This document shows, one piece after another, positions 2,460 through 33,821 of a stretch of DNA of 64,000 nucleotides. The position numbers and the translations under genes were made by a program. The DNA comes from an uncultured Bacteroidales bacterium (GTDB taxonomy: Bacteria; Bacteroidota; Bacteroidia; Bacteroidales; VadinHA17): the NCBI GenBank assembly GCA_963765005.1, contig CAVXUP010000009.1, positions 269,609 to 333,608 of the forward strand. Reading direction: 5' to 3'. The notes below the pieces were generated by a model. That model saw nothing but the letters and a program-made list of their open reading frames with translations. It had not been told where the DNA came from and did not search any database. How positions within the stretch are numbered: the stretch's first letter is position 1; each line of letters begins with the position of its first letter.

Positions 2460-2884
2460 TCAGGTTTTTTAATGATTAAGTTAAAGTTAGTTAAAGTGTA
2501 AGCGATTAGTAAATTTAATATTCGTCAGGCATATCAAAATTAATGAAAAAGATTAAAAAACAATTAAAATATGTTAAAATTTACATAAAAATTTAAATAA
2601 ATATTTTCCGGAGTTGGTAATAATAGTGGCAATATTCATTAAAAGCTATGATAATCCAAGTTTTAAGACATACCATTTAGAATTATAGAAAATTGAATTA
2701 AGGCCAATGTGCTAATACCTTATATATAACTAGGTATAATGTTCATTTTAATTATACTCTGATCTTTTTGAGGCAAGTAGAATTCAGTTTGGGAAAATTA
2801 TTCTAAATTGCAAGTCTGGCAATTAGATCAGCAATATTTTACCAGAATAATTTTTCTGTTTTGTTAAATCCAATAATTTCATAA

Positions 2885-3562
2885 ATGAAAATACTGGTAG
2901 TAGAAGATGAACCAAAAGTTGCCTCCTTTTTGAAAAGAGGACTTGAGGAGAGCCATTATGCTGTTGAACTTGCATATGACGGGCTTTCGGCAGAAAAACT
3001 GGCACGCCAGTACAAATATGACCTCTATATTCTCGATCTGATAATTCCGGGAATAGGAGGACTGGATCTCTGCAAAATAGTTAAGAAACTGAATCCCAAT
3101 ATCCCTGTACTGATGCTGACTGCACTGGGGACTACTGATGACAAACTTCTGGGATTTGATGCAGGAGCTAATGATTATCTTGTTAAACCATTTGAATTCA
3201 GGGAGCTGCTTGCGAGAGTCAAGGTTCTGCTTCGAAGTTCGGCATATCCCCCTGAACCTATGAATAAACTTATTTATGAGGATCTTGAACTTGACCTTGA
3301 CAAGAAAGAGGTTATTAGGGGAGGTACCCATATTGAGCTGACTGCCAAGGAGTTTTCGCTTCTTGAGTATTTCATGAGGAACAGCGGCAGAGTATTATCC
3401 CGCACCGATATCGCTGAAAAGGTATGGGATGCCAGTTTCGACTTCAGCACCAATATTGTTGATGTCTATGTAAACTTCCTTAGAAAAAAAATCGACAGAA
3501 GTTTCAGTAAAAAACTAATCCACACGAGGGTGGGTTTCGGGTATATTTTTGGAGATAACTAA
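2885..3562 (+). CDS. OmpR-family response regulator (receiver plus winged-helix domains)
   Basis: MKILVVEDEP...DLYILDLIIPGIGGLDLC...DDKLLGFDAGANDYLVKPFEFRELLARV receiver motifs. C-terminal trans_reg_C-like segment (LTAKEFSLLEYFMRNSGRVLSRTDIAEKVWD...VDVYVNFLRKKID). Confidence 0.95.
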   Translation: MKILVVEDEPKVASFLKRGLEESHYAVELAYDGLSAEKLARQYKYDLYILDLIIPGIGGLDLCKIVKKLNPNIPVLMLTALGTTDDKLLGFDAGANDYLVKPFEFRELLARVKVLLRSSAYPPEPMNKLIYEDLELDLDKKEVIRGGTHIELTAKEFSLLEYFMRNSGRVLSRTDIAEKVWDASFDFSTNIVDVYVNFLRKKIDRSFSKKLIHTRVGFGYIFGDN

Positions 3563-3563
3563 A

Positions 3564-4934
3564 ATGAAGATAAGGACAAGGTTAACACTTCAATTCCTGG
3601 TGATCGGAGGAATCATAATGATGATAGCTTCATTTGCTATATATTATGCTTCTGCAAACTTCAGAAGGCAGGATTTTCACAACAGGCTGAGGAATAATTC
3701 ACTGATTGCGGCAAAACTGTTGCTCGAAGCAGATGATATTGATGCCACCAGGGTTGAAAAACTCGAAAAAGACAATCCTGTAAAGCTTTATAATGAAAAG
3801 ATAGTTATTCTTAATTACCTCAATGATACTCTATACAGTTCAGATAAGAGCGGGATCTTAAAGATCAGTTATGAGACCCTTGAGAGAATAAGACAATATG
3901 AGAACGTGGGTTACAGGGATGGCGACTATACTATCTCCGGAACACTCTATACATCACGAAATGACCGGTTCGTTATTCTGTCGGCAGCGACTGACGACGA
4001 TGGCCTTGTTTTTCTGAAAAAACTTCAGCTGATACTCTTCTTTGTAACTCTGATAAGTCTGGCTCTGTTTTCGGTTGCAGGATGGTTCTACGCCGGCAGG
4101 GCATTAAAGCCAATCTCGGATGTCATTTCGAAGGTTGAGGATATCTCTATAACAAGTCTTAACCTGCGATTAAATGTAGGAAACGGGAAAGATGAAATAT
4201 CGGGTCTGGCAAAGACTTTCAATAAAATGCTGGCGCGACTGGAGACAGCCTTCGCTATGCAGAAAGACTTTATTTCAAATGCATCCCATGAACTAAGAAC
4301 TCCCCTCACTTCAATCAACGGACAGCTTGAGGTTCTTATGATGAAGGACCGCTCAACAGAGGATTACAGGATAGCAACTGCTTCGGTTCTTGAAGATATC
4401 AGATCTCTTATTAATCTTTTGAACAGGCTGTTGCTTATGGCACGTACAAGCTCTGAAAGCGAATCAAACAGTGACAGAAAAACCAGGATAGATGAGCTTT
4501 TGTGGCAGATCCGGGAAGAGATGAGAAAAACAAATACAGAGGCACGCATTGGCATATCGCTCGATGAGTCACTCTCTGATGCTGAACAGATGGTTGTTGC
4601 CGGTGATGAATACCTTCTGAGAGTTGCACTGTCAAACCTTATTGAAAACGGATGCAAATACTCAGCCGGCAATTCTGTGGACATTACCCTCAGACAGCTT
4701 GAAAACCGGATAGAGATTGTCATCAAAGACCAGGGAATTGGAATACCTGAGAATGAGATCAGAAATGTTTTTGAACCTTTCTTCCGCGGATCGAATGCCA
4801 AAACGATACAGGGTACAGGTATTGGTTTACCGCTTGTCAAACAGATCCTCAATAAGCACCATGGTACTATCGAAATCACTTCCATTATAAATAAAGGCAC
4901 TACTGTTCTGGTAAAGCTGCCTCTCTTTGCCTGA
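3564..4934 (+). CDS. Sensor histidine kinase (2 TM, HAMP, HisKA, HATPase_c)
   Basis: H-box FISNASHELRTPLTSI, N-box LSNLIENGCKYS, G-boxes DQGIGIPENE and GTGIGLPLVKQI. ATG 3564 lies 2 nt after the regulator stop (the ORF track uses TTG 3549). Confidence 0.93.
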   Translation: MKIRTRLTLQFLVIGGIIMMIASFAIYYASANFRRQDFHNRLRNNSLIAAKLLLEADDIDATRVEKLEKDNPVKLYNEKIVILNYLNDTLYSSDKSGILKISYETLERIRQYENVGYRDGDYTISGTLYTSRNDRFVILSAATDDDGLVFLKKLQLILFFVTLISLALFSVAGWFYAGRALKPISDVISKVEDISITSLNLRLNVGNGKDEISGLAKTFNKMLARLETAFAMQKDFISNASHELRTPLTSINGQLEVLMMKDRSTEDYRIATASVLEDIRSLINLLNRLLLMARTSSESESNSDRKTRIDELLWQIREEMRKTNTEARIGISLDESLSDAEQMVVAGDEYLLRVALSNLIENGCKYSAGNSVDITLRQLENRIEIVIKDQGIGIPENEIRNVFEPFFRGSNAKTIQGTGIGLPLVKQILNKHHGTIEITSIINKGTTVLVKLPLFA

Positions 4935-4968
4935 GACAATTATTTAAGCCTATCCTTTTCTTTTTAAC

Positions 4969-5052
4969 CACAGATTTACACAGAGTTTAAACAGAGTAAC
5001 ACTGTTGAATACTCTGTGTAACTCGGTCTTAACTCTGTGTAACTCTGTGTTA
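4969..5052. repeat. Inverted and tandem decamer repeats (ACACAGAGTT / AACTCTGTGT)
   Basis: ttacacagagtt at about 4977 is the reverse complement of aactctgtgtaa. The latter occurs in tandem at 5031-5050, with a degenerate copy at 5011-5021. Located just 3' of the kinase gene. Confidence 0.9.
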
Positions 5053-5264
5053 AAATATTTTTGGGATTGATTATTCAAAGTAAGTTAATTTCTGTGCTTA
5101 CTTTTTAATTCCTTTTTAATCTGCCTTTAATTTCCGCTTAATTGTAATTCCATAAATTAGCCAGCCGTACCAGTAAGATAGCCAGGTCTGTAATTTCACC
5201 TGTTATTTGTTACTGGCAGCAGGATAAAAGATTTATGCTTTTGAATTTAAACAACATATAATAT

Positions 5265-6950
5265 ATGTTTTATAAAATCATCAGAAGTTGCTCTCTCGGA
5301 TTAAGCACCGCATTAATTCCATTGCTTTTAATTTCAGGCTGCCAGTCGAACAGCAAAGAGGCAGGTGGAAAGAAGAGTGCCTCTTCACTCCCTGCAGCAG
5401 ACGATAACTATTTCCAGGAAATTGGCATTGGAGCAGGTATTGATTTTGTTCATTCAATAGGATCAGAGCATCTCACAAATATTATTGAGTCAAGCGGAGG
5501 GGGAACCGCCATGCTCGACTTTGACAAGGATGGCTTTATGGACCTGTTTGTTACCAGTGGAACCTGGATAGAAGGATTCAGCTCAGGGGAAAAACCATCC
5601 AGCCTGCCAGGCAACAGGTTATACAGGAATCTGCGTAACGGGACTTTCGCTGATGTTACCAAAGAGGCCAGAATAGATGAAATTGCTTACAGCATGGGAG
5701 TAACGGTGGGAGATTTTAATAATGATGGTTACCCCGATGTTTATGTCACTAATTACGGACCTAATATTCTTTACAAAAACAACGGCAACGGCACATTTTC
5801 TGATGTTACTAAAAAGGCCGGCGTAGGTGGTGGAAAAGAGTGCAGCGCGGGCTCCGTATGGCTCGATTTTGATAATGACGGATACCTTGATCTTTACGTC
5901 GGTAATTATCTTACCTACGATCCGAATTATAAATACTATTATGCTCCTGACGGCTTTCCCGGTCCTATGGCATACGAAATGGAAGCTGACTGGCTTTTTC
6001 ACAACAAGGGAGACGGAACTTTTGAAGAGGTCTCAGAATCAATGGGAATCAGCGATATCGATGGAAGGGCGATGGGTGTTGGTGCCGCTGACTACGATTC
6101 AGACGGATTCGTAGACATTTTCGTTGCAAATGATCACTCTCTTAATTATATGTGGCATAATGATGCCGGGAAAAAGTTCACAAACACCGGAATAATGTCG
6201 GGGACAGCTTTCAGTCAGGCTGGAGAGGCTACTGTGAGCATGTCAGTTGACTTTTCAGATTATAATTCAGACGGACTTCTTGATATGTTCCTTTCAGATG
6301 ACACTTACTGCTCCTTATATGAAAACAAAGGCAATGGAGTATTCAGTGACATATCAAACCAGTCAGGCATTGCGACAGCTGCTGCTCAGTTTGTTGGCTG
6401 GACAAGCTCTTTCCTCGATTATGACAATGATGGGGATGCTGATCTATTTAAGACAAATGGAGCATTGAAGCATTTGTACGGACATGAAGATCAGCTTTTT
6501 GAAAACCAGGGCAATGGAAAATTCATTGATAAATCAAATGGCCTGGGTAGTTATTTTAATGAAGAATATGTTGGCAGAGGAGCAGCTCTGGGTGATTATG
6601 ACAATGACGGCGATATTGACATCTATATTGCGAACCTTCACAACCGGGGCATGTTCCTGAGGAACAATAAGGGCAATGAGAATAACTGGATTATACTTAA
6701 TCTGGAGGGAACCATCAGCAACAGGGATGCTATTGGCTCAAGGGTGAAGATTACATCAGGCGGAAAAATGCAGACAAGCCAGAAGAAGAGCACTACAGGC
6801 TATTTATCCCAGAACGACAGCAGGCTCCATTTTGGTCTCGGGAAAAACACAACAGTTGAAAAAATAGAAATAATCTGGCCATCAGGCAGAGAACAAATAC
6901 TCGAAAATGTGACAGCCAATCAGATACTTAACATAACAGAACCAAAGTAG
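5265..6950 (+). CDS. CRTAC1-like lipoprotein: FG-GAP/VCBS repeats plus a C-terminal ASPIC/UnbV domain
   Basis: Lipobox LLLISGCQS. Repeated Ca-binding-like units: DFDKDGFMDLFV, DFNNDGYPDVYV, DFDNDGYLDLYV, DYDSDGFVDIFV, DYNSDGLLDMFL, DYDNDGDADLF, DYDNDGDIDIYI. ASPIC/UnbV-like tail NNWIILNLEGTISNRDAIGSRVKITSGG...GYLSQNDSRLHFGLG. Confidence 0.85.
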   Translation: MFYKIIRSCSLGLSTALIPLLLISGCQSNSKEAGGKKSASSLPAADDNYFQEIGIGAGIDFVHSIGSEHLTNIIESSGGGTAMLDFDKDGFMDLFVTSGTWIEGFSSGEKPSSLPGNRLYRNLRNGTFADVTKEARIDEIAYSMGVTVGDFNNDGYPDVYVTNYGPNILYKNNGNGTFSDVTKKAGVGGGKECSAGSVWLDFDNDGYLDLYVGNYLTYDPNYKYYYAPDGFPGPMAYEMEADWLFHNKGDGTFEEVSESMGISDIDGRAMGVGAADYDSDGFVDIFVANDHSLNYMWHNDAGKKFTNTGIMSGTAFSQAGEATVSMSVDFSDYNSDGLLDMFLSDDTYCSLYENKGNGVFSDISNQSGIATAAAQFVGWTSSFLDYDNDGDADLFKTNGALKHLYGHEDQLFENQGNGKFIDKSNGLGSYFNEEYVGRGAALGDYDNDGDIDIYIANLHNRGMFLRNNKGNENNWIILNLEGTISNRDAIGSRVKITSGGKMQTSQKKSTTGYLSQNDSRLHFGLGKNTTVEKIEIIWPSGREQILENVTANQILNITEPK

Positions 6951-6965
6951 TATTGAACGAAGCAG

Positions 6966-8384
6966 ATGAAAATAATATATCATAGATTATTTGTCTTTAT
7001 ACTCTCATCAGTGATGCTGTTATCTTCGTGCGTAAGGAAAGCTGATAGTAATGTTCTCATAACACTGGGCCCAAAAGGAATTGGCAGTTCTGTCAGGCAA
7101 ATTCCGGGAGAAACAGAAAAGTCAGTCAAGACTGCAATATATTTAATAAATCAAGGAGATAAAGTGCTTACTCCGGTCAATCTGACCACTGATTTCTTCA
7201 GTGCAAAATCGCCTGTAGCGTCATACGACGGAACCCGTATGCTTTTTACAGCTCAAAAATCGGCAGGCGACAGCTGGCAGATCTGGGAGATGGATCTTGG
7301 AAAGAAGAAATCATATAAAATCATTTCTTCAGATAATGATTGTACAGATCAGACATACCTTCCAGGCGGCAGAGTAGCATTTATCATGCAGATGAAGAAT
7401 GATTCATTAAAGGCTGAACAGGCTCTCTTCACATGCAATACTGGCGGCACTGATCTCAGAAGGATCACTTTCAATCCGGGATATTACCGGTTCCTTACAA
7501 TAATGAAAGATGGAAGGCTTCTTGTCGCTGGCGGACAATCATACCCCGAAAGAGGCAAGGAGATCCTGATTGCAATGCGACCCGACGGAACAAAGTCTGA
7601 AATGTTCTACTCGCCGGATGATGGAGCCATTCTGCTTTCAAAGCCCTGTGAATCATCTGACGGGATGATACTCTTCTCCCAAAGCTCATCAAACGGAGGC
7701 TCTGGAATTCTTACTGCAATATCTTACAACAGGCCTCTTCATTCACGAAAAGATCTTTCTGAAGCTGTTACAGGTAGTGTCGAATATGTTGCTTCTTCTC
7801 AAACAGGTTCAGTTCTGGTGTCAGTTACGGAGAATAACGATGGGGGCTTTCACCTTTATGAATTTGATATTAAGACTGGACAAACAGGGAAAAAACTCTT
7901 TTCGGACAACGAACAGATAATCCTTGAAATAGCAAAGGCAGAAGCCAGTGAACGCCCTAAAAAACTTCCCAGCGAAGTTGATATGGAAGTAAAAACAGGG
8001 TTGTTGCTTTGTCAGAATGTAAATCTTACAGGAATGAAATCGCCTGAAAATATTGATAATTCCCAAGAAGCAACCAAAATTGAGATCTTAGGGGTCAGCG
8101 AATCTCTCGGGCTCGTTGAAGTTGAAAAGGACGGATCCTTTTATCTTAAGATTGCCGCAGACACACCGTTCAGGATAAGGTCGCTTGACAGCAATGGAAA
8201 TACGGTTAAAGGACCAGGAACATGGCTTTACATAAGGCCAAATGAACGGAGGGGTTGCGTCGGTTGCCATGAGGACCAGGAGATTGTACCTGCAAACAGG
8301 ATGTCACTTGCCGTAAGCAAACAACCTGTTGGAGTGCCGGTAAGACTGGATGCAATAAAGGAAAAAGAGGTAGAACTTGAATAG
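6966..8384 (+). CDS. Lipoprotein with a PD40/TolB-like beta-propeller and a C-terminal mono-haem c domain (resembles the hydrazine-synthase alpha middle domain family)
   Basis: Lipobox LLSSCVRK. PD40-like blades (SPVASYDGTRMLFTAQKSAGDSWQIWEMDL; RRITFNPGYYRFLTIMKDGRLLV). Single CxxCH near the C-terminus (WLYIRPNERRGCVGCHEDQ, nt 8256-8270). Confidence 0.7.
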   Translation: MKIIYHRLFVFILSSVMLLSSCVRKADSNVLITLGPKGIGSSVRQIPGETEKSVKTAIYLINQGDKVLTPVNLTTDFFSAKSPVASYDGTRMLFTAQKSAGDSWQIWEMDLGKKKSYKIISSDNDCTDQTYLPGGRVAFIMQMKNDSLKAEQALFTCNTGGTDLRRITFNPGYYRFLTIMKDGRLLVAGGQSYPERGKEILIAMRPDGTKSEMFYSPDDGAILLSKPCESSDGMILFSQSSSNGGSGILTAISYNRPLHSRKDLSEAVTGSVEYVASSQTGSVLVSVTENNDGGFHLYEFDIKTGQTGKKLFSDNEQIILEIAKAEASERPKKLPSEVDMEVKTGLLLCQNVNLTGMKSPENIDNSQEATKIEILGVSESLGLVEVEKDGSFYLKIAADTPFRIRSLDSNGNTVKGPGTWLYIRPNERRGCVGCHEDQEIVPANRMSLAVSKQPVGVPVRLDAIKEKEVELE

Positions 8385-8386
8385 CT

Positions 8387-10414
8387 ATGACAAAGAGGTC
8401 ATTTATCCTGATATTTATAATTTTTACAACCGGGCTGGTGGTTTATTTTCCCGGAAAGAAGTGGGCGCGGGGACATGTCAATTACAAGACAGCTGTTGAC
8501 GACCACCCTCTTTTGTGCACTAACTGCCATCTTCATATAACAAAAAACAAGGTTATTCGGAAACTTGTAAACTCAGACTATTATTCCCCTTTAAATCTGA
8601 CAGTTTCAGATGACGGCAAAATGCTGCTCATTGTCGCCGCTGACCGTGATGAACTGGTTGTTGCCGATGCAGAAAAAAGTAAAGTTATCAAAAGGATTAA
8701 AGTAGGAAATAAACCTCACTCCGTTATCCTTGACAAAGAGTGCAAAACTGCCTACATCAGCAATCAGTGGTCGGATAACATTTCAGTACTCGATATTGAG
8801 ACTCTTTCTGTCAAAGATACACTGCCATGCGGAAGCGGGCCTGCCGGTCTTGCTATCAGTTCAGACGGAAACTACCTTTATGTTGTAAATTCATTTGCAT
8901 CTGATCTTTCTGTAGTCGACATAAATAAAAAAACTGAGATCAAGAGGTTAACCACAGGTAATAATCCTACCGGAGCCCGGCTCTCTCCCGACGGAGCTGA
9001 AGTTTATATTTCAGCCAGACGGGCCAGGATCGACATGTATGGAGAACCTCTTGTCACAGAGCTTACAATAATCGATGACAGTATTCAGAGAATCAGGAAA
9101 TACCTCGATGTCCCTTCTGCTTACCTGATAGAGAATTTTGCCTTTACTCCAGGCGGCGACATGGCATTTTTCACAATGATACGTCCTAAAAATATGGTAC
9201 CATCCATTCAGGTTGAAAGAGGCTGGATGATGACTCACGGCATAGGGATAATAGAAAGAAAGGAGAATGGCAGGTTAATACAGCTGCTTCTGGATGAGCC
9301 CAATATGTACTATCCCGATCCTTTCGATATTGTAATTTCGCCAGATGGCAAGCGTGCATTTGTATCAAACAGTGGTGTTAATATCATAACAGTTGTAAAC
9401 ATCGATTCAGTAAGAAGTCTTATCAACAGGTCCACCCCTGAAATGCTCCAGATATGGCCAGATCATCTCGGAATCAGCAGCAGTTATGTGGAAAAAAGGA
9501 TCCCGACCGGATCGAATCCAAAGGGGCTTGCTCTCTCTCCGGACGGAAAAATACTCTATGTTGCAGAGCATCTCCAGGACCGGATAGGAGTAATCAGCAC
9601 TGAGACACTCGAATCCACAGGCGGTATAGAACTGGGAGGTCCGTCGAGGTTAACTGTAGCACGGAAGGGAAGAAGGCTGCTGAACAATGCAGGACATACC
9701 TTCCAGACCCAATATTCATGCTATACCTGTCACCCCGATGAGCATGAAGACGGGCTGGTATACAATATGGCATCAAAAGATATGGGACGCAACCTCACAA
9801 ATACACAGTCGTTGCGTGATATCGGCGATACACCTCCCTTCAAATGGAATGGAAAGAACCAGACAGTTTATAAACAGGATGGAATGAGATTCTCGACTGT
9901 TCTTACAAGGACGGAACAATTCTCATATAAAAACCTCGATGCAATATCAGCTTACATAATGAGAGGTATCCCCTACCCTCCCAATCTAAAATTCAATCCC
10001 ACAGGGAATCTTACAGAGGCACAACAGCGTGGGAAAGTTGTATTTGAAAGGACAAAAGACAATTCTGGCAGAGAGATCCCTGAAATTAACAGATGCATTA
10101 CATGCCACCCACCTCCTTACTATACGAACCTGAAAACAGCTGACGTAAGCACTCTGGCTGCGAGTGATGACTCAATGCTTTTTGACACACCTCATCTTAA
10201 TAATATTTACGCATCGCCCCCGTATCTTCATGATGGAAGGGCTAAAACTCTTGAGGAAATATGGACACTCTACGGCAAGGATGACAAGCATGGTCTTGCC
10301 GGAGACATGAATAAAAACCAGCTCAATGATCTGGTAGAATACCTGAAGTCACTGAGAAGTCCAGATTACGAGAAACAGACGATAGAAACCTACAAAGCAT
10401 CGGTAAACCATTAA
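8387..10414 (+). CDS. Membrane-anchored tri-haem protein: N-terminal CxxCH, YVTN/YncE-type beta-propeller, C-terminal di-haem cytochrome c peroxidase/MauG-like domain
   Basis: Three CxxCH motifs: CTNCH (nt 8516-8530), CYTCH, CITCH. Propeller repeats (GNKPHSVILDKECKTAYISNQWSDNISVLD; GSGPAGLAISSDGNYLYVVNSFASDLSVVD; GNNPTGARLSPDGAEVYIS; GSNPKGLALSPDGKILYVAEHLQDRIGVI). CCP/MauG-like PPYLHDGRAKTLEEIW. Confidence 0.8.
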   Translation: MTKRSFILIFIIFTTGLVVYFPGKKWARGHVNYKTAVDDHPLLCTNCHLHITKNKVIRKLVNSDYYSPLNLTVSDDGKMLLIVAADRDELVVADAEKSKVIKRIKVGNKPHSVILDKECKTAYISNQWSDNISVLDIETLSVKDTLPCGSGPAGLAISSDGNYLYVVNSFASDLSVVDINKKTEIKRLTTGNNPTGARLSPDGAEVYISARRARIDMYGEPLVTELTIIDDSIQRIRKYLDVPSAYLIENFAFTPGGDMAFFTMIRPKNMVPSIQVERGWMMTHGIGIIERKENGRLIQLLLDEPNMYYPDPFDIVISPDGKRAFVSNSGVNIITVVNIDSVRSLINRSTPEMLQIWPDHLGISSSYVEKRIPTGSNPKGLALSPDGKILYVAEHLQDRIGVISTETLESTGGIELGGPSRLTVARKGRRLLNNAGHTFQTQYSCYTCHPDEHEDGLVYNMASKDMGRNLTNTQSLRDIGDTPPFKWNGKNQTVYKQDGMRFSTVLTRTEQFSYKNLDAISAYIMRGIPYPPNLKFNPTGNLTEAQQRGKVVFERTKDNSGREIPEINRCITCHPPPYYTNLKTADVSTLAASDDSMLFDTPHLNNIYASPPYLHDGRAKTLEEIWTLYGKDDKHGLAGDMNKNQLNDLVEYLKSLRSPDYEKQTIETYKASVNH

Positions 10415-11643: not shown

Positions 11644-12225
11644 ATGATAATGACTGACAAACAACTACTTATTGATCTTTCAAACCTTACAGAGGGTGAA
11701 CGCACTGAGATGAAAAAGCTTGGCCTGTTATCAGGTGACAATAAGCTTGCAGAATTTGTATACCCAGCTTTTCACAACGATCGTCCGCCAATAGAAAAAC
11801 ATGTTGTGCATGCCCCTCATGTTATAAACGAAGCATATAACTACCAGAAACCATCATCCTTTTCCAGAGCACTCAGGCTTGACTTCGGCGATTATAAAAT
11901 TCTTCTGATTTCGGGAACTGCCAGCGTCAACGAAGAGGGTAAAGCTGAGCATATAGGTGATTTCAAGGCTCAGTTATGGAGGACTTACCGTAATATTACC
12001 AATCTGCTGGCAGCGGAAGGGATGTCATGGCATGATATTGTCAGAACAACTAATTACCTGAGAGACATAGAGAGGGATTATGCTGAATTCAATAAAATAA
12101 GAACCACCTTCTACAGGTGGATGAATCTTGATCCTTTGCCGGCAAGTACAGGCATACAGGCAAGGCTTTGCTGGGAAACACTCCTTGTCGAGATCGAGGC
12201 TTATGCTGTCTGTAAAATCAAATAA
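11644..12225 (+). CDS. YjgF/RidA-fold (chorismate-mutase-like superfamily) protein with a roughly 60-aa N-terminal extension
   Basis: ILLISGTASVNEEG...DFKAQLWRTYRNITNLLAAEGMSWHDIVRTTNYL...PASTGIQARLCWETLLVEIEAYAV matches the RidA/YjgF C-terminal signature (P-A-x-T/S...L-V-E-I-E). Confidence 0.7.
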   Translation: MIMTDKQLLIDLSNLTEGERTEMKKLGLLSGDNKLAEFVYPAFHNDRPPIEKHVVHAPHVINEAYNYQKPSSFSRALRLDFGDYKILLISGTASVNEEGKAEHIGDFKAQLWRTYRNITNLLAAEGMSWHDIVRTTNYLRDIERDYAEFNKIRTTFYRWMNLDPLPASTGIQARLCWETLLVEIEAYAVCKIK

Positions 12226-12232
12226 AAAATAA

Positions 12233-13546
12233 ATGAAAGCATTACTTAAGAATTTTAGTACAATGCTGTTATTTCTGGCCTTTACAGTTCTGATAGCTGA
12301 AGGTCAGCAGGCAAATCCTAATTATGGGAATATCCCCGATGAACTCGTCGCCTACGACAGGTACCAGAAAGCATACAAGTATCATTTCATGGAACCGATG
12401 CAGTTTTATGGAGCGGGCCGTGAGAAACTTCCGCCCACGGACCTGAAGGAGGTAAGAATCGGATTTCTCGGACCGCTTGAAGGCTCAATCCTGGTAAATC
12501 TGGGCAAGCAGATGAAACAGGGTGCTGAAATGGCTGTTGAGCAAGCAAATAAGAAAGGCGGTTACAAGGGGCTTCCTTTCACAATGATGCTTCATAATGA
12601 TGCAGGTCTGTGGGGAGCTGCAGCCAATGAAATCGTGAAAATGGATGATGAGGGTGTCTGGGCCTGGCTAGGGTCGATCGATGATATAGTATCACATGTT
12701 GCAATAAGGGCTACACTGAAACTTGAAATCGCGAATGTCAATACCGGTGATCCTGATCCTACATTCACTGAAACAAACATCCCCTGGGTGATAAGGGTAA
12801 TTCCCGACGACAGGCAAAGCAGTTATGTACTTGTCAACCAAATCTACAAAATTGACCGTCACTCAAGAGTGGCTGTGATGAGAGCAAATAACAGGTATGG
12901 CCGTGTAGGTACCCTGCATTTCAACCGCTCTGCCAGCAGGATTGGATATCCTATCATAATCGAGGAAAGGTTTAATGATGGAGAAACAACATTTGCTTCG
13001 CAGCTTGAACGCATTAAAAAGGCAAAACCGGATGCAATTCTCGTCTGGGGAAATGCACAGGAATCAGCTCTCATTTTAAAGGAGATCCGCAGTATGGGAA
13101 TGAAGCAACCGATTTATGGTTCTGACAGGATGGTGAGTCAGGAATTCCTTAGTGCTGCCGGAGATCTGGCAAATGGCATTAAGACTACCTGTCAGTATAA
13201 TCCCGACTCAAATGATCCAAAACTTCAGGCTTTCAGGGCTGAGTACAGAAAAAGATATAATATGGAAGCTGATGTTTTCGCAGCCCATGCATACGACGGT
13301 ATGAATATAATCATTGAAGCTGTAAGGAAAGCCGGACTGAACAGGGTCCTGATCAGAGATCTGCTTACCGACTCGAAGACATTCAATGGTTATGAGGGAG
13401 TTACCGGCAAGATAATCCTTGACGGAACATGGAATAATATAAGGCCTATATATTCGGCTAAGATAAATAATGGTAAATTTGAATTCTCTCCGGCTCCGAA
13501 GTGGGAAAAGGATGACAAGATTTACAAGAAATCCAGGGAGTATTAA
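12233..13546 (+). CDS. Periplasmic binding protein, LivK/Peripla_BP_6 type (orphan: no permease or ATPase nearby)
   Basis: Signal peptide. VRIGFLGPLEGSILVNLGKQMKQGAEMAVEQANKKGGYKGLPF... is the typical branched-chain/aromatic-ligand SBP N-terminus. Also FAAHAYDGMNIIIEAV. Confidence 0.85.
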   Translation: MKALLKNFSTMLLFLAFTVLIAEGQQANPNYGNIPDELVAYDRYQKAYKYHFMEPMQFYGAGREKLPPTDLKEVRIGFLGPLEGSILVNLGKQMKQGAEMAVEQANKKGGYKGLPFTMMLHNDAGLWGAAANEIVKMDDEGVWAWLGSIDDIVSHVAIRATLKLEIANVNTGDPDPTFTETNIPWVIRVIPDDRQSSYVLVNQIYKIDRHSRVAVMRANNRYGRVGTLHFNRSASRIGYPIIIEERFNDGETTFASQLERIKKAKPDAILVWGNAQESALILKEIRSMGMKQPIYGSDRMVSQEFLSAAGDLANGIKTTCQYNPDSNDPKLQAFRAEYRKRYNMEADVFAAHAYDGMNIIIEAVRKAGLNRVLIRDLLTDSKTFNGYEGVTGKIILDGTWNNIRPIYSAKINNGKFEFSPAPKWEKDDKIYKKSREY

Positions 13547-13568
13547 GAATAAGTAAGAAAAAACTGTG

Positions 13569-14435
13569 ATGGAGACATTTTCGTGTGATAATCCTGTTAA
13601 TGATAAATTTAAGATTCCCTCTAAAGTCAGCCGGAACAGAAGATCAGATAATACTGTTGTCGAAGTAAAAGGAGTTGAAATAGGCGGATCTGAAGTAATT
13701 ATTATAGCAGGCCCCTGCGCTGTTGAAAATAAAGAACAGCTGTTTGAAACTGCAAGAGCTGTAAAAGCCGGCGGTGCCAGGATATTGAGAGGTGGAGCTT
13801 TCAAACCACGCTCCTCCCCCTATAACTTTCAGGGAATGGGCGAAGAGGGACTGATACTTCTGCGCGACATAAGCAGAGAAACTGGTATGCCGGTAGTTAC
13901 TGAGGTTATGGACACAAGGCAGATGGAACTTGTTGCATCATATGCAGATATGATACAGATTGGTTCGAGAAATATGCAGAATTACCCTCTGCTCAAGGAA
14001 GCAGGATTGTTACGTAAACCAGTACTGCTTAAAAGAGGCATGATGGCAACAATCGAAGAGTTTCTTCTGGCAGCCGAATATATCCTTAGTCAGGGTAATG
14101 AACAGGTAATTCTCTGTGAACGAGGTATCCGAACCTTCGAAACATCAACCCGTAATACCCTGGATCTTAGCGCTGTGCCTATGCTTAAGCATCTGACTCA
14201 TCTGCCTGTAATTATTGATCCCAGTCATGGTACGGGGCTCAGATGGATGGTGCCTTCAATGGCAAAGGCTGCTGTTGCAGTAGGAGCTGACGGTCTTATT
14301 ATTGAAGTTCATTATAAACCCGAAGAGGCGCTCTGCGATGGACACCAGTCTCTTAATATTATGGAATTCAACACAATGATGGCCGATCTTGATAAGATAG
14401 CCTCAGCCGTGAACAGGAAGACATCTCTTACTTAA
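13569..14435 (+). CDS. aroF: 3-deoxy-7-phosphoheptulonate (DAHP) synthase, type I-beta, with no fused regulatory or chorismate mutase domain
   Basis: [64 protein letters not shown] motifs. The GAFKPR-SPY-FQG motif separates it from KDO8P synthase. Confidence 0.9.
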
Positions 14436-14462: not shown

Positions 14463-15584
14463 ATGATTTTTCTGAACCTGCTAATTCCTGCCTGCATTCT
14501 GCTGGGCAGTATGAATCGCACCGATTGCACTGTACTGATTCAGAAGGAATCCCTATATCTCAACGGCAAAACCAGGATAGGTTTATTAATCGACAATAAA
14601 AGTTCTCTTGCAGCAAAGCATGCCGCAGAGATGGCAATCAGTGAGGCCAACAATAAGGCAGGTGCAACAGGCATGAAGTTTGAGCTTGTGGTCCGCTCTA
14701 TGGAAGGCCCCTGGGGTACAGGATCAAAGCAGACAGTAAACCTGATTTTTGATGAGAATGTTATTGCAATAGCGGGTTCTCATGATGGCCGCAATGCCCA
14801 CCTTGCTGAGCAGGTTTGTGCAAAATCGGGGGTTACCCTTATTTCTGCCAGGGCCAGCGACCCCACCCTTTCGCAGGCCTTTGTCCCCTGGTATTTCAGC
14901 TGCGTCCCAAACGACGACCAGCAGGCTTCAGTCTTATTTGAAGAAATTACTCTCATGGCAAAAGAGAGTGAAGTACTGCTGATATCAGAGAACTCATATG
15001 ATGCGAAACAGGCCTCAAAAAGTTATATCAGAAAAAATAAAAGCAAGGGATTGAAGGAGCCCGAAGTGTTTTCATACAACGACTATGACAATGATCTTTC
15101 GGGATTAGCAGCCTCTATAAAAAGAACAGGAAAGAAATGCATTGTAATCTTTGGTAAACCTCCTTCAGCTATAAAGCTCCTGAAGGAGATCCGAAAAATA
15201 AAGCCCGAAATAATCATGTTTGCATCACTTTCGATAATGGACGAGAACAAACTACCGGTTAATGAGCTTTACCAGTTCGAAGATCTTTATATTGTTTCTC
15301 CCGGCCTGATCAATTCTCCTAAATGGACTGAATTCAGCAAGGAGTATCAGAGACTGTACGGATATGCACCAGGAGCCATAGCTTCATTCTCCTACGATGC
15401 AATGAATGTAATTATTGAAGCTATAAATGAGACCGGACCAGACCAGGAATTGATGCAAAACACAATTGCGAAAAGGAGATTTAACGGAGTAACCGGACCT
15501 ATAGAATTTGATGAACATGGAAACAGGAAATGGCCATTTGGAATGATTATCATAAAAAACGGGATTCCAACTCCTGTCAGGTGA
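14463..15584 (+). CDS. Second LivK/Peripla_BP_6-type binding protein (orphan)
   Basis: TRIGLLIDNKSSLAAKHAAEMAISEANNKAGATGMKFELVV..., IASFSYDAMNVIIEAI, FNGVTGPIEFDEHGNR. Confidence 0.8.
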   Translation: MIFLNLLIPACILLGSMNRTDCTVLIQKESLYLNGKTRIGLLIDNKSSLAAKHAAEMAISEANNKAGATGMKFELVVRSMEGPWGTGSKQTVNLIFDENVIAIAGSHDGRNAHLAEQVCAKSGVTLISARASDPTLSQAFVPWYFSCVPNDDQQASVLFEEITLMAKESEVLLISENSYDAKQASKSYIRKNKSKGLKEPEVFSYNDYDNDLSGLAASIKRTGKKCIVIFGKPPSAIKLLKEIRKIKPEIIMFASLSIMDENKLPVNELYQFEDLYIVSPGLINSPKWTEFSKEYQRLYGYAPGAIASFSYDAMNVIIEAINETGPDQELMQNTIAKRRFNGVTGPIEFDEHGNRKWPFGMIIIKNGIPTPVR

Positions 15585-15626
15585 TAATGAGGTCAGTTTA
15601 TGCATATATTTCATAATTTTGAGAGC

Positions 15627-20774: not shown

Positions 20775-20806
20775 AGTTTGGAGTTTGGAGTTTGGAGTTT
20801 GGAGTT
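20775..20806. repeat. Heptamer tandem array (AGTTTGG x4.5)
   Basis: agtttggagtttggagtttggagtttggagtt begins at the first nt after the stop codon (20772-20774). Confidence 0.95.
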
Positions 20807-20822
20807 AATTATTAATACTTAT

Positions 20823-23121: not shown

Positions 23122-23221
23122 TGGTAAATTAAAAAAATATTCTAACTTTATTTTGATCTGAAATTATGCAGGGTGGCAATAATTCCATAAGTTCACATTC
23201 TTTTTAGTTATTCATTAATTG

Positions 23222-26578: not shown

Positions 26579-26845
26579 ACAACATCAATAAAAGGATCTT
26601 CTTTTAAACATGTAAGGGCGCAATATTTTCGCCTACAACATTAATGAAAAGGATCTTCTTTTAAACATGTAAGGGCGCAAAATTTTGCGCCCCTACAACA
26701 TTAATGAAAGGATCTTATGTAAAACATGTAAGGGCGCAATATTTTGCGCCCCTACAACATTAATGAAAGGATCTTATGTAAAACATGTAGGGGCGCAAAA
26801 TTTTGCGCCCCTACAACAATATTTAAAAGGATCTTCCTATCAATA
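26579..26845. repeat. Tandem array (4 full copies plus 1 partial) of a 56-60 bp unit, each carrying a GC-rich palindrome
   Basis: Units start at 26579, 26635, 26695, 26754 and 26813 (ACAACATTAATGAAAGGATCTTATGTAAAACATGTAGGGGCGCAAAATTTTGCGCCCCT). A perfect 24-bp palindrome aggggcgcaaaattttgcgcccct lies at 26789-26812. The array sits between convergent genes. Confidence 0.95.
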
Positions 26846-28607: not shown

Positions 28608-28639
28608 AACTCTAATTTTAAATGTTTAAAACATATTTG

Positions 28640-33053: not shown

Positions 33054-33154
33054 ATAATATAATGTATAACTTATGTAAATATAGGATAAAAGTTTGGAGT
33101 CCCTGGGTAAGCACTTATATAATTATCTTCAGAGTATGAGATGCGGATTGCTTC

Positions 33155-33266: not shown

Positions 33267-33357
33267 TGAATTCTTCTGTGAAAAAATTAACACCAATCCA
33301 TTGCAGTTTCAAATGATTTCATATTTTTGCATAAAATGCCATAGACAAGTATCATTT

Positions 33358-33760: not shown

Positions 33761-33821
33761 TTTTTTTATTTTTAATTGAGATAAACTTATATCATTTAAC
33801 ATTAACAAAAAAGGAGGTCCT

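What the first reader, a model, noticed from the sequence alone, without database searches (positions are those of the whole stretch)
6966..10414. Adjacent haem/propeller pair with the domain logic of hydrazine synthase subunits in a non-anammox context
Gene 6966-8384 is a PD40-type propeller followed by a C-terminal domain with a single CxxCH (RGCVGCHE). Gene 8387-10414 fuses a YVTN-type propeller to a di-haem CCP/MauG-like domain (CYTCH, CITCH, PPYLHDG) and adds an N-terminal CTNCH. As I recall the published hydrazine synthase structure, the alpha subunit is a propeller plus haem domains, beta is a propeller, and gamma is a CCP/MauG-like di-haem protein; beta and gamma are fused in some anammox lineages. 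The same building blocks sit side by side here, which points to a related small-molecule (N-, O- or S-oxide/peroxide) redox complex of unknown chemistry.
Basis: partly seen in the sequence, partly recalled or inferred. Interest (0 to 1): 0.7.

Follow-up and report, generated by a model that had tools for sequence, protein, structure and literature searches.

The report
Hydrazine-synthase-like haem pair in Bacteroidota
Two adjacent genes encode true but catalytically altered relatives of the anammox enzyme hydrazine synthase, in a conserved Bacteroidota operon; this was already published in 2023-2025, the function is unknown, and such genes risk being miscounted as anammox markers.

Summary
Both ORFs and all four CxxCH motifs sit at the stated coordinates. 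The hydrazine synthase (HZS) interpretation also holds, and it is more than shared domain logic.

- **P1 (6966-8384):** homologous to the propeller and middle domain of HzsA (hhalign 99.8 %, E 1e-29; best PDB fold match 5C2V chain A).
- **P2 (8387-10414):** homologous to a fused HzsB-HzsC (best PDB sequence hits are HZS beta at 2e-45 and gamma at 5e-20; best fold hit 5C2V chain B, TM-score 0.89).
- **Co-occurrence:** the two genes are adjacent in all 80 Bacteroidota species loci examined. They sit in a conserved operon: CRTAC1-like FG-GAP protein, P1, P2, Reg_prop propeller, Rid-family protein, two solute-binding proteins, a giant TPR/FG-GAP protein.

This is not new. Hägglund et al. 2025 describe this exact architecture as "clade III" HZS homologues and list Bacteroidota members. 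Jiang et al. 2025 counted such genes as anammox markers.

The residues that define hydrazine synthesis are absent: the alphaTyr591/Zn site, haem alphaII, gammaCys165 and gammaHis144 (Trp here). The module also occurs in cultured Flavobacteriaceae, which I recall as aerobic. It is therefore an HZS-like multi-haem complex with different, unknown chemistry.

New here: a cytoplasmic Rid protein lacking the canonical arginine, and a Reg_prop propeller, recur as partners in distant lineages.

The parts
6966..8384 (+). P1: HzsA-like lipoprotein, made of a six-bladed TolB/Tricorn-type propeller plus the HZS_alpha middle domain with one c-type haem. It lacks the haem alphaII domain.
   Evidence: Pfam HZS_alpha 7.5e-18. 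NCBIfam hydrazine_alpha 1e-20, far below the equivalog cut-off. PDB 5c2v_A 5.5e-12. hhalign against anammox alpha 99.8 %, E 1.1e-29, P1 30-437 = HzsA 58-589. Foldseek top hit 5c2v_A at 3e-17, TMq 0.67. Lipobox LLSSC read from the sequence.
8256..8270 (+). P1 haem-binding motif CVGCH (C431, C434, H435), equivalent to the haem alphaI motif of HzsA. The protein ends 37 aa later.
   Evidence: Invariant in 43 homologues. Aligns with Kuenenia CSGCH 583-587. No counterpart of alphaTyr591 or alphaCys303. Coordinates verified.
8387..10414 (+). P2: HzsB-HzsC-like fusion. It has an N-terminal hydrophobic anchor, one extra c-haem, a seven-bladed YVTN propeller and a di-haem CCP/MauG/HZS-gamma-like domain.
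   Evidence: NCBIfam hydrazine_BC 3.2e-63, beta 2.6e-54, gamma 5.6e-25, all far below cut-offs. PDB 5c2v_B 2.3e-45 and 5c2v_C 4.9e-20. Foldseek 5c2v_B 7.7e-34, TMt 0.89. 30 % identity to Kuenenia beta+gamma over 609 columns.
8516..8530 (+). Extra N-terminal haem motif CTNCH (C44, C47, H48), with invariant His30 and His40 just upstream. Proposed electron entry or exit haem next to the membrane anchor.
   Evidence: Invariant columns. The 'one extra motif' is the clade III character in PMC12758564. AF2 predicts helix 3-35. The role is inferred.
9170..9250 (+). Blade-6 insertion loop of the propeller, equivalent to HZS beta 245-260, the loop that reaches the inter-haem tunnel in HZS. Gln275 sits at the position of betaGlu253, and Glu277 is invariant two residues on.
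   Evidence: Alignment, with numbering derived. This is one of the most conserved segments of P2 (0.87 against 0.80 overall). Low AF2 confidence at 269-281.
9719..9733 (+). Haem gammaI-like motif CYTCH (C445, C448, H449), the presumed catalytic haem.
   Evidence: Aligns with gamma Cys102/Cys105/His106. The surrounding region is the most conserved in the protein (0.94).
9845..9847 (+). Trp487 at the position of HZS gammaHis144. This is the CCP/MauG state.
   Evidence: PPFKWNG aligns with PPFRHEG. Trp is invariant in the family and present in nearly all non-anammox representatives. Same conclusion in PMC12758564.
9878..9880 (+). Asp498 at the position of HZS gammaCys165, the third covalent haem link. 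Many more distant homologues have Cys here.
   Evidence: alignment: QDG in the Bacteroidota clade, against QCG in P0121, P0123, P0126, P0127, P0129, P0141 and P0158, and VCG in anammox.
10094..10108 (+). Haem gammaII-like motif CITCH (C570, C573, H574), the presumed electron-transfer haem. His635 of the family-wide 'HG' motif is the likely distal ligand (bis-His, as in HZS).
   Evidence: The position of the CCP Met ligand is Tyr629, which is not conserved in the wider family. The ligand assignment is inferred.
5265..6950 (+). CRTAC1-type FG-GAP / ASPIC-UnbV lipoprotein, a conserved partner gene directly upstream of P1.
   Evidence: Pfam FG-GAP_3 2e-55 and UnbV_ASPIC 7.5e-24. Present in 70/80 loci, the rest being cut by contig ends. 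Also present in L103 at 35 % P2 identity. A partner in clades I-III of PMC12758564.
10414..11616 (+). Reg_prop-like beta-propeller lipoprotein. Its start overlaps the P2 stop (ATGA-type overlap).
   Evidence: PDB 4a2l (HTCS sensor propeller) 1.1e-15. Pfam Reg_prop is weak. Present in 77/80 loci at 60-83 % identity. A Reg_prop gene follows beta-gamma in L103 and L109.
11644..12225 (+). Cytoplasmic Rid/YjgF-family protein with a conserved N-terminal extension of about 65 aa. It lacks the canonical RidA arginine (LPAST at nt 12136-12150).
   Evidence: Pfam Ribonuc_L-PSP 2e-16. Present in 59/80 loci at 74-86 % identity. It follows the module in L103, L105 and L109 at 32-40 % P2 identity. Alignment with E. 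coli RidA (sequence written from memory).
12233..13546 (+). Exported HAAT-family (LivJ-like) solute-binding protein. No permease or ATPase gene is present in the operon.
   Evidence: Pfam Peripla_BP_6 6e-44. PDB 4gnr 8e-26. 65/80 loci. PBP6 genes also flank alpha/beta-gamma in L101 and L103.
13566..14435 (+). Stand-alone type I-beta DAHP synthase (cytoplasmic). Accessory: absent from the Flavobacteriaceae versions.
   Evidence: NCBIfam PRK08673 454.6 bits against a cut-off of 335. 53/80 loci, and missing in L029, L038, L044, L047 and L048.
14463..15584 (+). Second exported HAAT-family solute-binding protein.
   Evidence: Pfam Peripla_BP_6 4.7e-27. 63-65/80 loci.
15600..20774 (+). Giant TPR + FG-GAP + ASPIC/UnbV lipoprotein (1724 aa) that closes the conserved core.
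   Evidence: Pfam FG-GAP_3 9e-83, UnbV_ASPIC 1.8e-24 and TPR families. Detected in every locus that extends far enough.
2885..4934 (+). OmpR-type response regulator and sensor kinase of the CopRS/CusRS/HprRS class, 330 nt upstream. A candidate regulator of the operon in Bacteroidales.
   Evidence: NCBIfam cztR_silR_copR 2.4e-68 and cztS_silS_copS 6.7e-60, both below the family cut-offs. Same position and strand in 28-30 of 80 loci, and absent in Flavobacteriaceae. The regulatory link is inferred.

Best explanation
P1 and P2 are the alpha-like and fused beta-gamma-like subunits of a hydrazine-synthase-LIKE multi-haem complex. This is the 'clade III' type of Hägglund et al. 2025. It is exported to the periplasmic side of a Bacteroidota cell and does not make hydrazine.

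SHOWN:
- Both proteins are full-length homologues of the HZS subunits.
- They are always encoded together, 2 nt apart.
- All four haem motifs and the propeller loop that reaches the inter-haem tunnel in HZS are the best-conserved parts.
- The residues specific to hydrazine synthesis are missing: the alphaTyr591/His587-Zn site, alphaCys303, the haem alphaII domain, the gammaCys165 cross-link and gammaHis144.
- The module sits in a conserved operon with a CRTAC1-type FG-GAP lipoprotein, a Reg_prop propeller, an arginine-less cytoplasmic Rid protein and two orphan amino-acid/amide-type binding proteins.

INFERRED mechanism:
- P2 is held at the inner membrane by its N-terminal helix.
- Electrons pass from a membrane or periplasmic donor through the extra N-terminal haem to the bis-His gammaII-like haem. 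From there they pass via Trp487 to the open-site gammaI-like haem.
- At that haem a small oxidant is reduced. My best guess is an N-oxide such as NO or an NH2OH-level species. H2O2 is nearly as likely.
- The product or a second substrate then moves along the loop-gated tunnel to the single His-ligated haem of P1. That haem has no feeder haem, so it probably catalyses a step needing no net electrons (condensation, dehydration or dismutation). The substrate may be an amine or amino compound delivered by the two binding proteins.
- The Rid protein deals with a reactive nitrogen-containing product in the cytoplasm.

The identity of the substrate is speculation (about 0.3). The architecture and the 'not a hydrazine synthase' conclusion are well supported.
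For: Homology: profile, PDB sequence and hhalign; the best fold matches are 5C2V chains A and B, well ahead of generic propellers.

Co-occurrence and operon: (80 species loci), (gaps of 27 nt or less; alpha/beta-gamma adjacency retained at 31-46 % identity; Reg_prop, Rid and PBP6 recur).

Residues: (numbering checked against Kuenenia sequences from L081). P1 ends 37 aa after its CxxCH. gammaH144 aligns with W487, gammaC165 with D498, betaE253 with Q275. From read against the alignment, gammaD168 aligns with F502 and gammaE122 with K464.

Conservation of the haem regions and the loop.

Export signals: read from the sequences.

Literature: the same architecture is published as clade III, with the same residue conclusions (PMC12758564). 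AlphaFold-Multimer complexes and transcription of such genes, including Bacteroidota ones, are reported in PMC11828985. The module occurs in cultured Maribacter, Lutibacter and Lutimonas. That these genera are aerobic heterotrophs is my own knowledge.
Against: - There is no experimental datum on any non-anammox HZS homologue.
- I could not model the P1-P2 complex. The di-haem domain of my P2 model is unreliable (pLDDT 25-40), so the tunnel, the haem ligands and the electron path are inferred from alignment only.
- Trp487 and the CopRS/HprRS-like sensor point towards peroxide or high-valent haem chemistry, and not towards N-oxide reduction.
- The Rid protein and the DAHP synthase are cytoplasmic, and their link to a periplasmic enzyme is unexplained.
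- Whether the FG-GAP and Reg_prop proteins are subunits, substrates or scaffolds is unknown.
- Hydrazine dehydrogenase could only be excluded within this 64-kb window, not from the genome.
Confidence: 0.6

Rival explanations
1. A MauG/MbnH-like protein-maturing enzyme. The di-haem domain of P2 uses H2O2 to reach a high-valent state, and by hole-hopping through Trp487 it oxidatively modifies a residue of a partner protein encoded alongside (P1, the CRTAC1-type FG-GAP protein or the Reg_prop propeller). This would create a cofactor or a metal site.
For: Trp487 is conserved at the CCP/MauG position. P2 hits MbnH- and MauG-family models weakly (TIGR04039 8.8e-07, TIGR03791 1.5e-3). Tyr629 aligns with the Tyr of the MbnH 'DIYSEGG' segment and with the CCP Met-ligand position. 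Several exported partner proteins are strictly co-conserved. The neighbouring sensor is of the Cu/Ag/H2O2 class. A radical-SAM / PP-loop pair is appended to the operon here and lies next to the module in L043 and L080.
Against: The di-haem domain is 16 orders of magnitude closer to HZS gamma than to any solved CCP, MauG or MbnH. Tyr629 is not conserved in the wider family, whereas the HZS-like 'HG' histidine is. The tunnel-facing loop and a second open-site haem protein are strongly conserved, and a pure protein-modifying enzyme would not need them. No small precursor subunit gene is present.
Confidence: 0.17
2. A specialised periplasmic peroxidase. The complex is essentially an elaborated bacterial cytochrome c peroxidase that detoxifies H2O2 (or organic peroxides or HOCl-derived species). 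P1 and the extra haem serve only as the electron-delivery wire.
For: CCP_MauG Pfam hit just above the gathering score. Trp487 is conserved. The module occurs in Flavobacteriaceae genera I recall as aerobic. An HprR/CopR-class two-component system lies upstream in 28-30 loci.
Against: The CCP Met ligand is absent, and the feeder haem looks bis-His and low-potential, as in HZS. This reading does not explain the conserved solute-binding proteins, the Rid protein, the FG-GAP proteins or the conserved tunnel loop. By alignment the P1 haem sits in the HzsA active-site position, which is not a typical wire position.
Confidence: 0.15
3. A genuine hydrazine synthase. The operon would confer cryptic anammox capacity on Bacteroidota, which is the reading adopted for HZS_alpha-domain genes in the cold-seep survey PMC11828985.
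For: True homology of all three subunit equivalents, with alpha next to beta-gamma. Published AlphaFold-Multimer models and transcripts for such genes.
Against: alphaTyr591, alphaCys303, the haem alphaII domain, gammaCys165, gammaHis144, gammaAsp168 and betaGlu253 all lack counterparts. Scores are 6-10 times below the NCBIfam equivalog cut-offs. There is no HAO/HDH-type multihaem gene in 64 kb. The module is present in cultured Maribacter, Lutibacter and Lutimonas, which I recall as aerobic. Hägglund et al. rejected this reading on the same residue grounds.
Confidence: 0.04
4. A chance juxtaposition of a generic YVTN-propeller-CCP fusion and an unrelated TolB-like lipoprotein that happens to carry a CxxCH.
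For: Propeller and CCP folds are very common. P2 also hits many generic propeller families.
Against: HZS-specific matches far exceed the generic ones for both proteins. Adjacency is conserved in 80/80 species loci and across 31-46 % identical relatives.
Confidence: 0.02

Closest known systems
'Clade III' co-localised homologues of HZS alpha and fused beta-gamma (Hägglund et al., Genome Biol Evol 2025, PMC12758564)
   Same: Every stated character matches. The alpha gene lies upstream of the fused beta-gamma gene. An FG-GAP/CRTAC1 gene lies upstream of alpha. Two ABC-type substrate-binding genes lie downstream. There is one extra haem motif in beta-gamma. Alpha lacks about the last 100 aa and haem alphaII. 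There is Trp at gammaHis144, no Tyr591, and the loop is present without Glu253. The paper's supplementary tables list Prolixibacteraceae, Mariniphaga, Lutibacter and Maribacter proteins, and even contigs I retrieved independently (L027, L028, L045).
   Different: Nothing essential; this window is another member. Points added here: the abstract of the paper speaks of 'anaerobic bacteria', whereas the module is also in cultured Flavobacteriaceae (aerobic, as I recall). The Reg_prop propeller and the arginine-less Rid protein are conserved partners. Asp replaces gammaCys165 in this clade.
Hydrazine synthase HZS-alpha/beta/gamma of Kuenenia stuttgartiensis (PDB 5C2V; EC 1.7.2.7)
   Same: P1 corresponds to the alpha propeller plus middle domain up to the haem alphaI CxxCH (24 % identity). 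P2 corresponds to the beta propeller with its blade-6 loop plus the gamma di-haem domain (30 % identity). The haem gammaI and gammaII motifs and the probable bis-His gammaII are shared, as is the beta-gamma fusion seen in Scalindua.
   Different: No Tyr591-ligated haem or Zn site. No haem alphaII domain. No Cys165 cross-link (Asp). Trp in place of His144. Gln at Glu253. Phe at Asp168. One extra N-terminal haem and a membrane anchor on P2, and a lipoprotein signal on P1. Gene order is alpha then beta-gamma, where anammox has beta, gamma, alpha. Different partner genes, and no anammoxosome or hydrazine dehydrogenase context.
hzsA-like + fused hzsBC-like genes of Phycisphaerae UBA1845 MAGs (Suarez/Dalcin Martins et al., FEMS Microbiol Lett 2023, PMC10732223)
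   Same: An hzsA-like gene directly upstream of a fused hzsBC-like gene in a non-Brocadiales genome. The authors likewise proposed a broad HZS-like enzyme family with alternative substrates.
   Different: Different phylum. Those MAGs co-encode HAO-like proteins and were discussed as possible novel anammox bacteria. No such genes are in this window.
Bacterial di-haem cytochrome c peroxidases and MauG/MbnH (Pfam PF03150)
   Same: Two CxxCH motifs, the conserved inter-haem Trp, and the FDTPxL...PY(L/F/M)HDG motif.
   Different: Only a marginal Pfam score. The best solved CCP matches at 3.9e-05, against 1.7e-21 for HZS gamma. Neither the Met (CCP) nor a conserved Tyr (MauG) ligand is present. The domain is fused to a propeller and paired with an HzsA-like haem protein.

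Membership tests
Hydrazine synthase sensu stricto (EC 1.7.2.7; NCBIfam NF052339/NF052340/NF052341/NF052342) | Scores above the curated equivalog cut-offs | tested here: not met
   P1 scores 73 bits against a cut-off of 800. P2 scores 214 against 1250 (BC fusion), 185 against 560 (beta) and 88 against 625 (gamma).
Hydrazine synthase sensu stricto | Haem alphaI ligated by alphaTyr591, with the CxxCH histidine (His587) and Cys303 binding zinc | tested here: not met
   P1 has the CxxCH, but there is no residue aligned to Tyr591 because the protein ends 37 aa after the motif. The position of Cys303 is variable (Asp in P1) (numbering verified).
Hydrazine synthase sensu stricto | C-terminal cytochrome domain with bis-His haem alphaII (CxxCH 685-689, His772) | tested here: not met
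   P1 is 472 aa with a single CxxCH. The hhalign match stops at HzsA residue 589.
Hydrazine synthase sensu stricto | Haem gammaI with a third covalent bond from gammaCys165, plus gammaHis144 and distal gammaAsp168 | tested here: not met
   Asp498, Trp487 and Phe502 occupy these positions (residue roles).
Hydrazine synthase sensu stricto | Beta-subunit loop 245-260 carrying betaGlu253 at the tunnel constriction | tested here: inconclusive
   The loop is present and highly conserved. Glu253 aligns with Gln275, but an invariant Glu277 lies two residues on. No structure of the complex is available.
Hydrazine synthase sensu stricto | Genomic company of hydrazine dehydrogenase / HAO-type octahaem proteins and other anammox genes | tested here: not met
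   There is no multihaem ORF in the 64-kb window. A genome-wide check was not possible. The hosts are Bacteroidota, including cultured Flavobacteriaceae.
HZS-like 'clade III' gene cluster (PMC12758564) | Alpha-like gene immediately upstream of a fused beta-gamma-like gene | tested here: met
   6966-8384 then 8387-10414, with a 2-nt gap. The same holds in 80 loci.
HZS-like 'clade III' gene cluster (PMC12758564) | FG-GAP/CRTAC1 gene upstream of alpha, and two ABC-type substrate-binding genes downstream | tested here: met
   5265-6950 is FG-GAP_3 plus UnbV_ASPIC. 12233-13546 and 14463-15584 are Peripla_BP_6.
HZS-like 'clade III' gene cluster (PMC12758564) | One extra haem motif in beta-gamma. Alpha lacks haem alphaII and about the last 100 aa. 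Trp at gammaHis144. | tested here: met
   CTNCH at aa 44-48. P1 has a single haem. Trp487.
Pfam PF18582 HZS_alpha (hydrazine synthase alpha subunit middle domain) | Score above the gathering threshold | tested here: met
   65.3 bits against 26.6, residues 367-436.
Bacterial di-haem cytochrome c peroxidase / MauG (Pfam PF03150) | Pfam score above the gathering threshold, two CxxCH motifs and the inter-haem Trp | tested here: met
   28.0 bits against 25.6, which is marginal and has no individually significant stretch. Both motifs and Trp487 are present.
Bacterial di-haem cytochrome c peroxidase / MauG (Pfam PF03150) | His/Met (CCP) or His/Tyr (MauG) ligation of the electron-transfer haem | tested here: inconclusive
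   The Met position is Tyr629 in P2 but F/H/N/Y in the wider family. The HZS-like His635 is invariant. The ligand cannot be assigned without a structure.
Canonical RidA imine/enamine deaminase (for the partner gene 11644-12225) | Catalytic arginine (E. coli RidA Arg105, motif PARS) | tested here: not met
   The motif aligns to LPAST or LPAAT in all orthologues examined, including distant lineages. The score of 43.9 bits is below the TIGR00004 cut-off of 106. The E. coli sequence used was written from memory.

The most novel reading that the evidence does not exclude
The conserved set comprises the HzsA-like protein, the HzsBC-like protein, the CRTAC1-type FG-GAP protein, the Reg_prop propeller, orphan amino-acid/amide-binding proteins and an arginine-less cytoplasmic Rid enzyme. 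Together these could form a previously unrecognised pathway in which a two-site haem machine converts a small N-oxide (NO or NH2OH) together with an amine or amino compound. That would be a non-anammox, N-N- or N-O-bond-forming or N-scavenging reaction, operating in abundant Bacteroidota including Flavobacteriaceae genera I recall as aerobic. It would be a new reaction in the nitrogen cycle, and a living model for the ancestor of hydrazine synthase.
Probability: 0.15. Interest if true: 0.85.

Novelty: already known. Interest (0 to 1): 0.45.

Why it matters
**A disputed marker.** HzsA and HZS_alpha-domain genes are used as diagnostic anammox markers. One large survey reported that its most abundant 'hzsA' contigs were Bacteroidales, and it extended anammox to ten phyla on that basis (PMC11828985). 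A later study rejected that reading (PMC12758564). This window is a clean example of the disputed Bacteroidota type. It supports the sceptical view: the hydrazine-specific residues are missing, and the same operon is present in cultured Flavobacteriaceae (aerobic, as I recall). Nitrogen-loss budgets inferred from such gene counts would therefore be inflated.

**A testable open question.** The family is large. There are at least 1,470 P1-like and 1,494 P2-like sequence clusters, the module occurs in 213 species genomes, and it is reported as transcribed in sediments. No function is known. Because members exist in cultivable Maribacter, Lutibacter and Lutimonas, the question of what HZS evolved from, and what its relatives do, can be addressed directly by genetics and biochemistry.

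Tried and rejected
- **Complex prediction.** I rely on published AlphaFold-Multimer models of related pairs.
- **P2 model.** The di-haem domain came out at pLDDT 25-40. I did not use it for haem geometry, and the Foldseek hit for P2 reflects the propeller only.
- **Promoter and terminator scan** of 2400-7000 gave nothing above the shuffled expectation. The sigma-70 consensus used is, to my knowledge, not that of Bacteroidota. Operon structure therefore rests on gene spacing.
- **Source record of the window** could not be found by exact-protein look-up.
- **The PD40 + CINCH protein at 23219-24787** was considered as a second HzsA-like gene. This was rejected: BLASTP against P1 gives E = 0.12, and there is no HZS_alpha hit.
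- **The CIKCH motif at 33094-33597** was considered as another cytochrome. It lies in an Rrf2-type regulator.
- **The Rid gene plus DAHP synthase** was considered as a chorismatase (FkbO/Hyg5-like) system. There is only a sub-threshold Pfam hit (17.8 bits against 27), PDB matches are ordinary Rid proteins, and DAHP synthase is absent from many versions of the module. This is left as an idea only.
- **Source names for the Rid family** are generic, so no functional clue came from them.
- **Flanks in Flavobacteriaceae** are not conserved, so the core ends at the two ASPIC genes.
- **Pfam** failed on wrong coordinates and was repeated.

Full report
**1. Observation**

- P1 has a single CxxCH (CVGCH, aa 431-435).
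- P2 has three (CTNCH 44-48, CYTCH 445-449, CITCH 570-574), plus PPYLHDG. Coordinates were verified.
- From the window's own amino-acid composition, a CxxCH is expected 0.0018 times per 1000 residues.
- All four motifs are invariant in alignments of 43 (P1) and 53 (P2) homologues.
- Pfam and NCBIfam confirm a YVTN/YncE-type propeller and a marginal CCP_MauG match in P2, and the HZS_alpha domain in P1.

**2. The resemblance to hydrazine synthase is homology, not shared domain logic**

*Sequence.*
- NCBIfam's best family for P2 is the HZS beta-gamma fusion (3.2e-63), followed by HZS beta (2.6e-54). HZS gamma scores 5.6e-25. P1 hits hydrazine_alpha at 1e-20.
- Against all PDB sequences, P2's best hit is HZS beta (2.3e-45), with HZS gamma at 4.9e-20. 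P1's best hit is HZS alpha (5.5e-12).
- The di-haem domain alone matches HZS gamma at 1.7e-21, whereas the best solved CCP reaches only 3.9e-05.
- I retrieved the Kuenenia hzs locus from a metagenome (L081). Its numbering reproduces the published residues exactly.
- A profile of the P1 family aligns with a profile of four anammox alpha subunits at 99.8 % probability (E 1.1e-29) over 402 columns. P1 30-437 aligns with HzsA 58-589, which is the propeller plus the middle domain up to the haem alphaI motif.
- P2 is 30 % identical to Kuenenia beta+gamma over 609 columns. P1 is 24 % identical to alpha.

*Structure.*
- The AF2 model of P1 (pLDDT 76) has 5C2V chain A as its best PDB match (3e-17, TM 0.67), against 5e-10 and TM 0.47 for TolB.
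- The well-modelled propeller of P2 matches 5C2V chain B at 7.7e-34 (TM 0.89, rmsd 2.8 Å), against 3e-22 for the next YVTN propeller.
- The di-haem part of the P2 model is unreliable and was not used.

**3. The pair is part of a conserved operon**

A scan of one genome per species found relatives in 213 genomes. The best 80 loci are all Bacteroidota: Bacteroidales, Prolixibacteraceae/Mariniphaga, and cultured Maribacter arenosus, M. polysiphoniae, M. luteus, Lutibacter citreus and Lutimonas vermicola.

tblastn with the window's proteins shows one gene order throughout:
- an OmpR-type regulator and CopS-like kinase (in 28-30 loci)
- the CRTAC1-type FG-GAP/ASPIC lipoprotein
- P1
- P2
- a Reg_prop-like propeller
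- a Rid-family protein
- a HAAT-type binding protein
- DAHP synthase (absent in Flavobacteriaceae)
- a second binding protein
- a giant TPR/FG-GAP/ASPIC lipoprotein

P1 precedes P2 in every locus that extends far enough. In the window, genes from 5265 to 26565 are separated by 27 nt or less, with one gap of 97 nt.

In relatives only 31-46 % identical to P2, the alpha/beta-gamma adjacency persists (L101, L102, L103, L105, L109, L111).
- The full set recurs at 35 % identity in L103: ASPIC, alpha, beta-gamma, Reg_prop, Rid, PBP6, PBP6.
- A minimal alpha/beta-gamma/Rid trio occurs at 32 % identity in L105.
- The most divergent beta-gamma-like genes stand alone.

Both families are large. There are at least 1,494 (P2) and 1,470 (P1) 90 %-identity clusters, named only 'YVTN propeller', 'lactonase' or 'hypothetical'. 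There are 1,017 50 %-identity representatives at E <= 1e-30 for P2, although these include unrelated giant YVTN-repeat proteins.

**4. It has been described before**

- Suarez/Dalcin Martins et al. 2023 found hzsA-like genes upstream of fused hzsBC-like genes in Phycisphaerae, and proposed a broad HZS-like family.
- Hägglund et al. 2025 sorted co-localised alpha/beta-gamma homologues into clades I-IV. Their clade III has FG-GAP upstream of alpha, two substrate-binding genes downstream, one extra haem motif in beta-gamma, and a short alpha without haem alphaII. That is this locus, feature for feature. Their supplementary tables list the Bacteroidota proteins, including contigs I had fetched independently.
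- Jiang et al. 2025 took HZS_alpha-domain genes in ten phyla as evidence of new anammox bacteria. Bacteroidota contributed 16 MAGs, and Bacteroidales contigs were the most abundant 'hzsA'. They reported transcription and AlphaFold-Multimer complexes.

The finding is therefore already known, and it sits inside a live disagreement.

**5. It is not a hydrazine synthase**

Mapping the published key residues onto P1 and P2 gives the following (residue roles):
- P1 keeps the CxxCH but ends 37 residues later. It therefore has no Tyr591, no Zn site (the Cys303 position is variable) and no haem alphaII domain.
- In P2, gammaHis144 is Trp487, as in CCP/MauG.
- gammaCys165 is Asp498. Many more distant homologues do have Cys there.
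- gammaAsp168 aligns with Phe502 and gammaGlu122 with Lys464.
- betaGlu253 aligns with Gln275, with an invariant Glu277 two residues on.

Scores lie 6-10-fold below the NCBIfam equivalog cut-offs. No HAO/HDH-type multihaem gene lies in the 64 kb. The module is also found in cultured Maribacter, Lutibacter and Lutimonas. That these genera are aerobic heterotrophs is my own knowledge and was not tested here.

**6. What it most likely is and does**

*Read from the sequences.*
- P1, the FG-GAP proteins and the Reg_prop protein carry lipoprotein signals.
- P2 has an N-terminal hydrophobic helix with no obvious cleavage site.
- At least the first binding protein has a signal peptide.
- The Rid protein and DAHP synthase have none.

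*Most conserved parts*: the gammaI-like haem region (0.94), the gammaII region (0.90), the blade-6 loop (0.87) and the extra-haem segment (0.83) in P2, and the pre-haem segment in P1 (0.85).

*Inferred model.* I infer a membrane-anchored complex with four haems.
- Electrons run from the extra haem to a bis-His gammaII-like haem. The 'HG' histidine is shared with HZS gamma, and the CCP Met position is not conserved.
- From there they pass through Trp487 to an open-site haem that reduces a small oxidant.
- A loop-gated tunnel passes the product to the single His-ligated haem of P1. That haem has no feeder haem, so it probably performs a step needing no net electrons.

The substrate is unknown. 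I slightly favour an N-oxide:
- the nearest characterised relative reduces NO;
- clade I relatives carry c554-like modules;
- the binding proteins are of the amino-acid/urea/amide family;
- a Rid protein is a conserved partner.

Peroxide chemistry is nearly as likely, because of Trp487 and the CopRS/HprRS-class sensor. A MauG-like protein-modifying role cannot be excluded.

**7. What is added beyond the literature**

- The Rid-family gene and the Reg_prop propeller recur with the module in distant lineages (L103 and L109; Rid also in L105).
- That Rid protein is cytoplasmic, has a conserved N-terminal extension of about 65 aa, and lacks the RidA catalytic arginine.
- Asp replaces the cross-linking Cys specifically in this clade.
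- The module exists in cultivable Flavobacteriaceae, which makes the function experimentally accessible.

**8. Verdict**

The novelty is low because the architecture is published. Interest is moderate because the function is open, the family is abundant, and its misreading as an anammox marker has consequences.

Noticed in passing
window 20778-23121 (+): An asparagine-synthase-like PP-loop protein (Pfam Asn_synthase 3e-10) overlaps a RaSEA-like radical SAM protein (TIGR01210 1.3e-33). The pair starts 3 nt after the giant ASPIC gene. The same pair lies next to the HZS-like module, in other arrangements, in L043 and L080. Radical SAM genes also flank the minimal module in L105. This may be a maturation system for the module.
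   Followed up: partly
window 23219-26565 (+): A PD40 propeller lipoprotein with a single CINCH haem motif is followed, with overlapping stop and start, by a DUF6057 protein (Pfam 4.7e-130). The PD40-haem gene also lies beside the module in L032. It is not a detectable paralogue of P1 (BLASTP E 0.12).
   Followed up: partly
window 11644-12225 (+), motif at 12136-12150: The Rid-family gene inside the operon lacks the canonical RidA arginine (LPAST where E. coli has PARS). It has a conserved N-terminal extension of about 65 aa and no signal peptide. It is conserved next to alpha/beta-gamma pairs down to 32 % P2 identity. Database names such as '2-iminobutanoate deaminase' are probably wrong for it.
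   Followed up: partly
window 3-2459 (-): A TonB-dependent receptor appears split into two ORFs: 1005-2459 (CarboxypepD_reg + Plug) and 3-707 (beta-barrel part, running off the window). This could be a frameshift, a pseudogene or an assembly error. A homologous receptor lies upstream of the two-component system in 22 of the 80 loci.
   Followed up: partly
window 33094-36038 (+): An Rrf2-family regulator is followed by a CoxB-like small subunit and a very divergent haem-copper oxidase subunit I (100 bits against a CtaD cut-off of 670). This could be an atypical O2 reductase or NO reductase under an NsrR-like regulator. It lies 23 kb from the HZS-like pair, and no link was shown.
   Followed up: no
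window 13566-14435 (+): A stand-alone, bona fide type I-beta DAHP synthase (454 bits against a cut-off of 335) is embedded between two exported binding-protein genes in the Bacteroidales versions of the operon, and is absent from the Flavobacteriaceae versions. The reason for linking a shikimate-pathway enzyme to a periplasmic haem module is unexplained.
   Followed up: partly
window 26840-31955 (-): A SusD-family gene (26840-27907) lies near a SusC-like CarboxypepD_reg gene (29520-31955), with two further ORFs between them. This is a polysaccharide-utilisation-type pair immediately downstream of the long + strand operon, consistent with a Bacteroidota host.
   Followed up: no
L101-L111 and alignment (P0121, P0123, P0126, P0127, P0129, P0141, P0158): Many non-Bacteroidota beta-gamma-like proteins have Cys ('QCG') at the position of the HZS gammaCys165 haem cross-link. 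The Bacteroidota clade has an invariant Asp ('QDG'). The cross-link may therefore be ancestral in the family and lost in this clade.
   Followed up: partly
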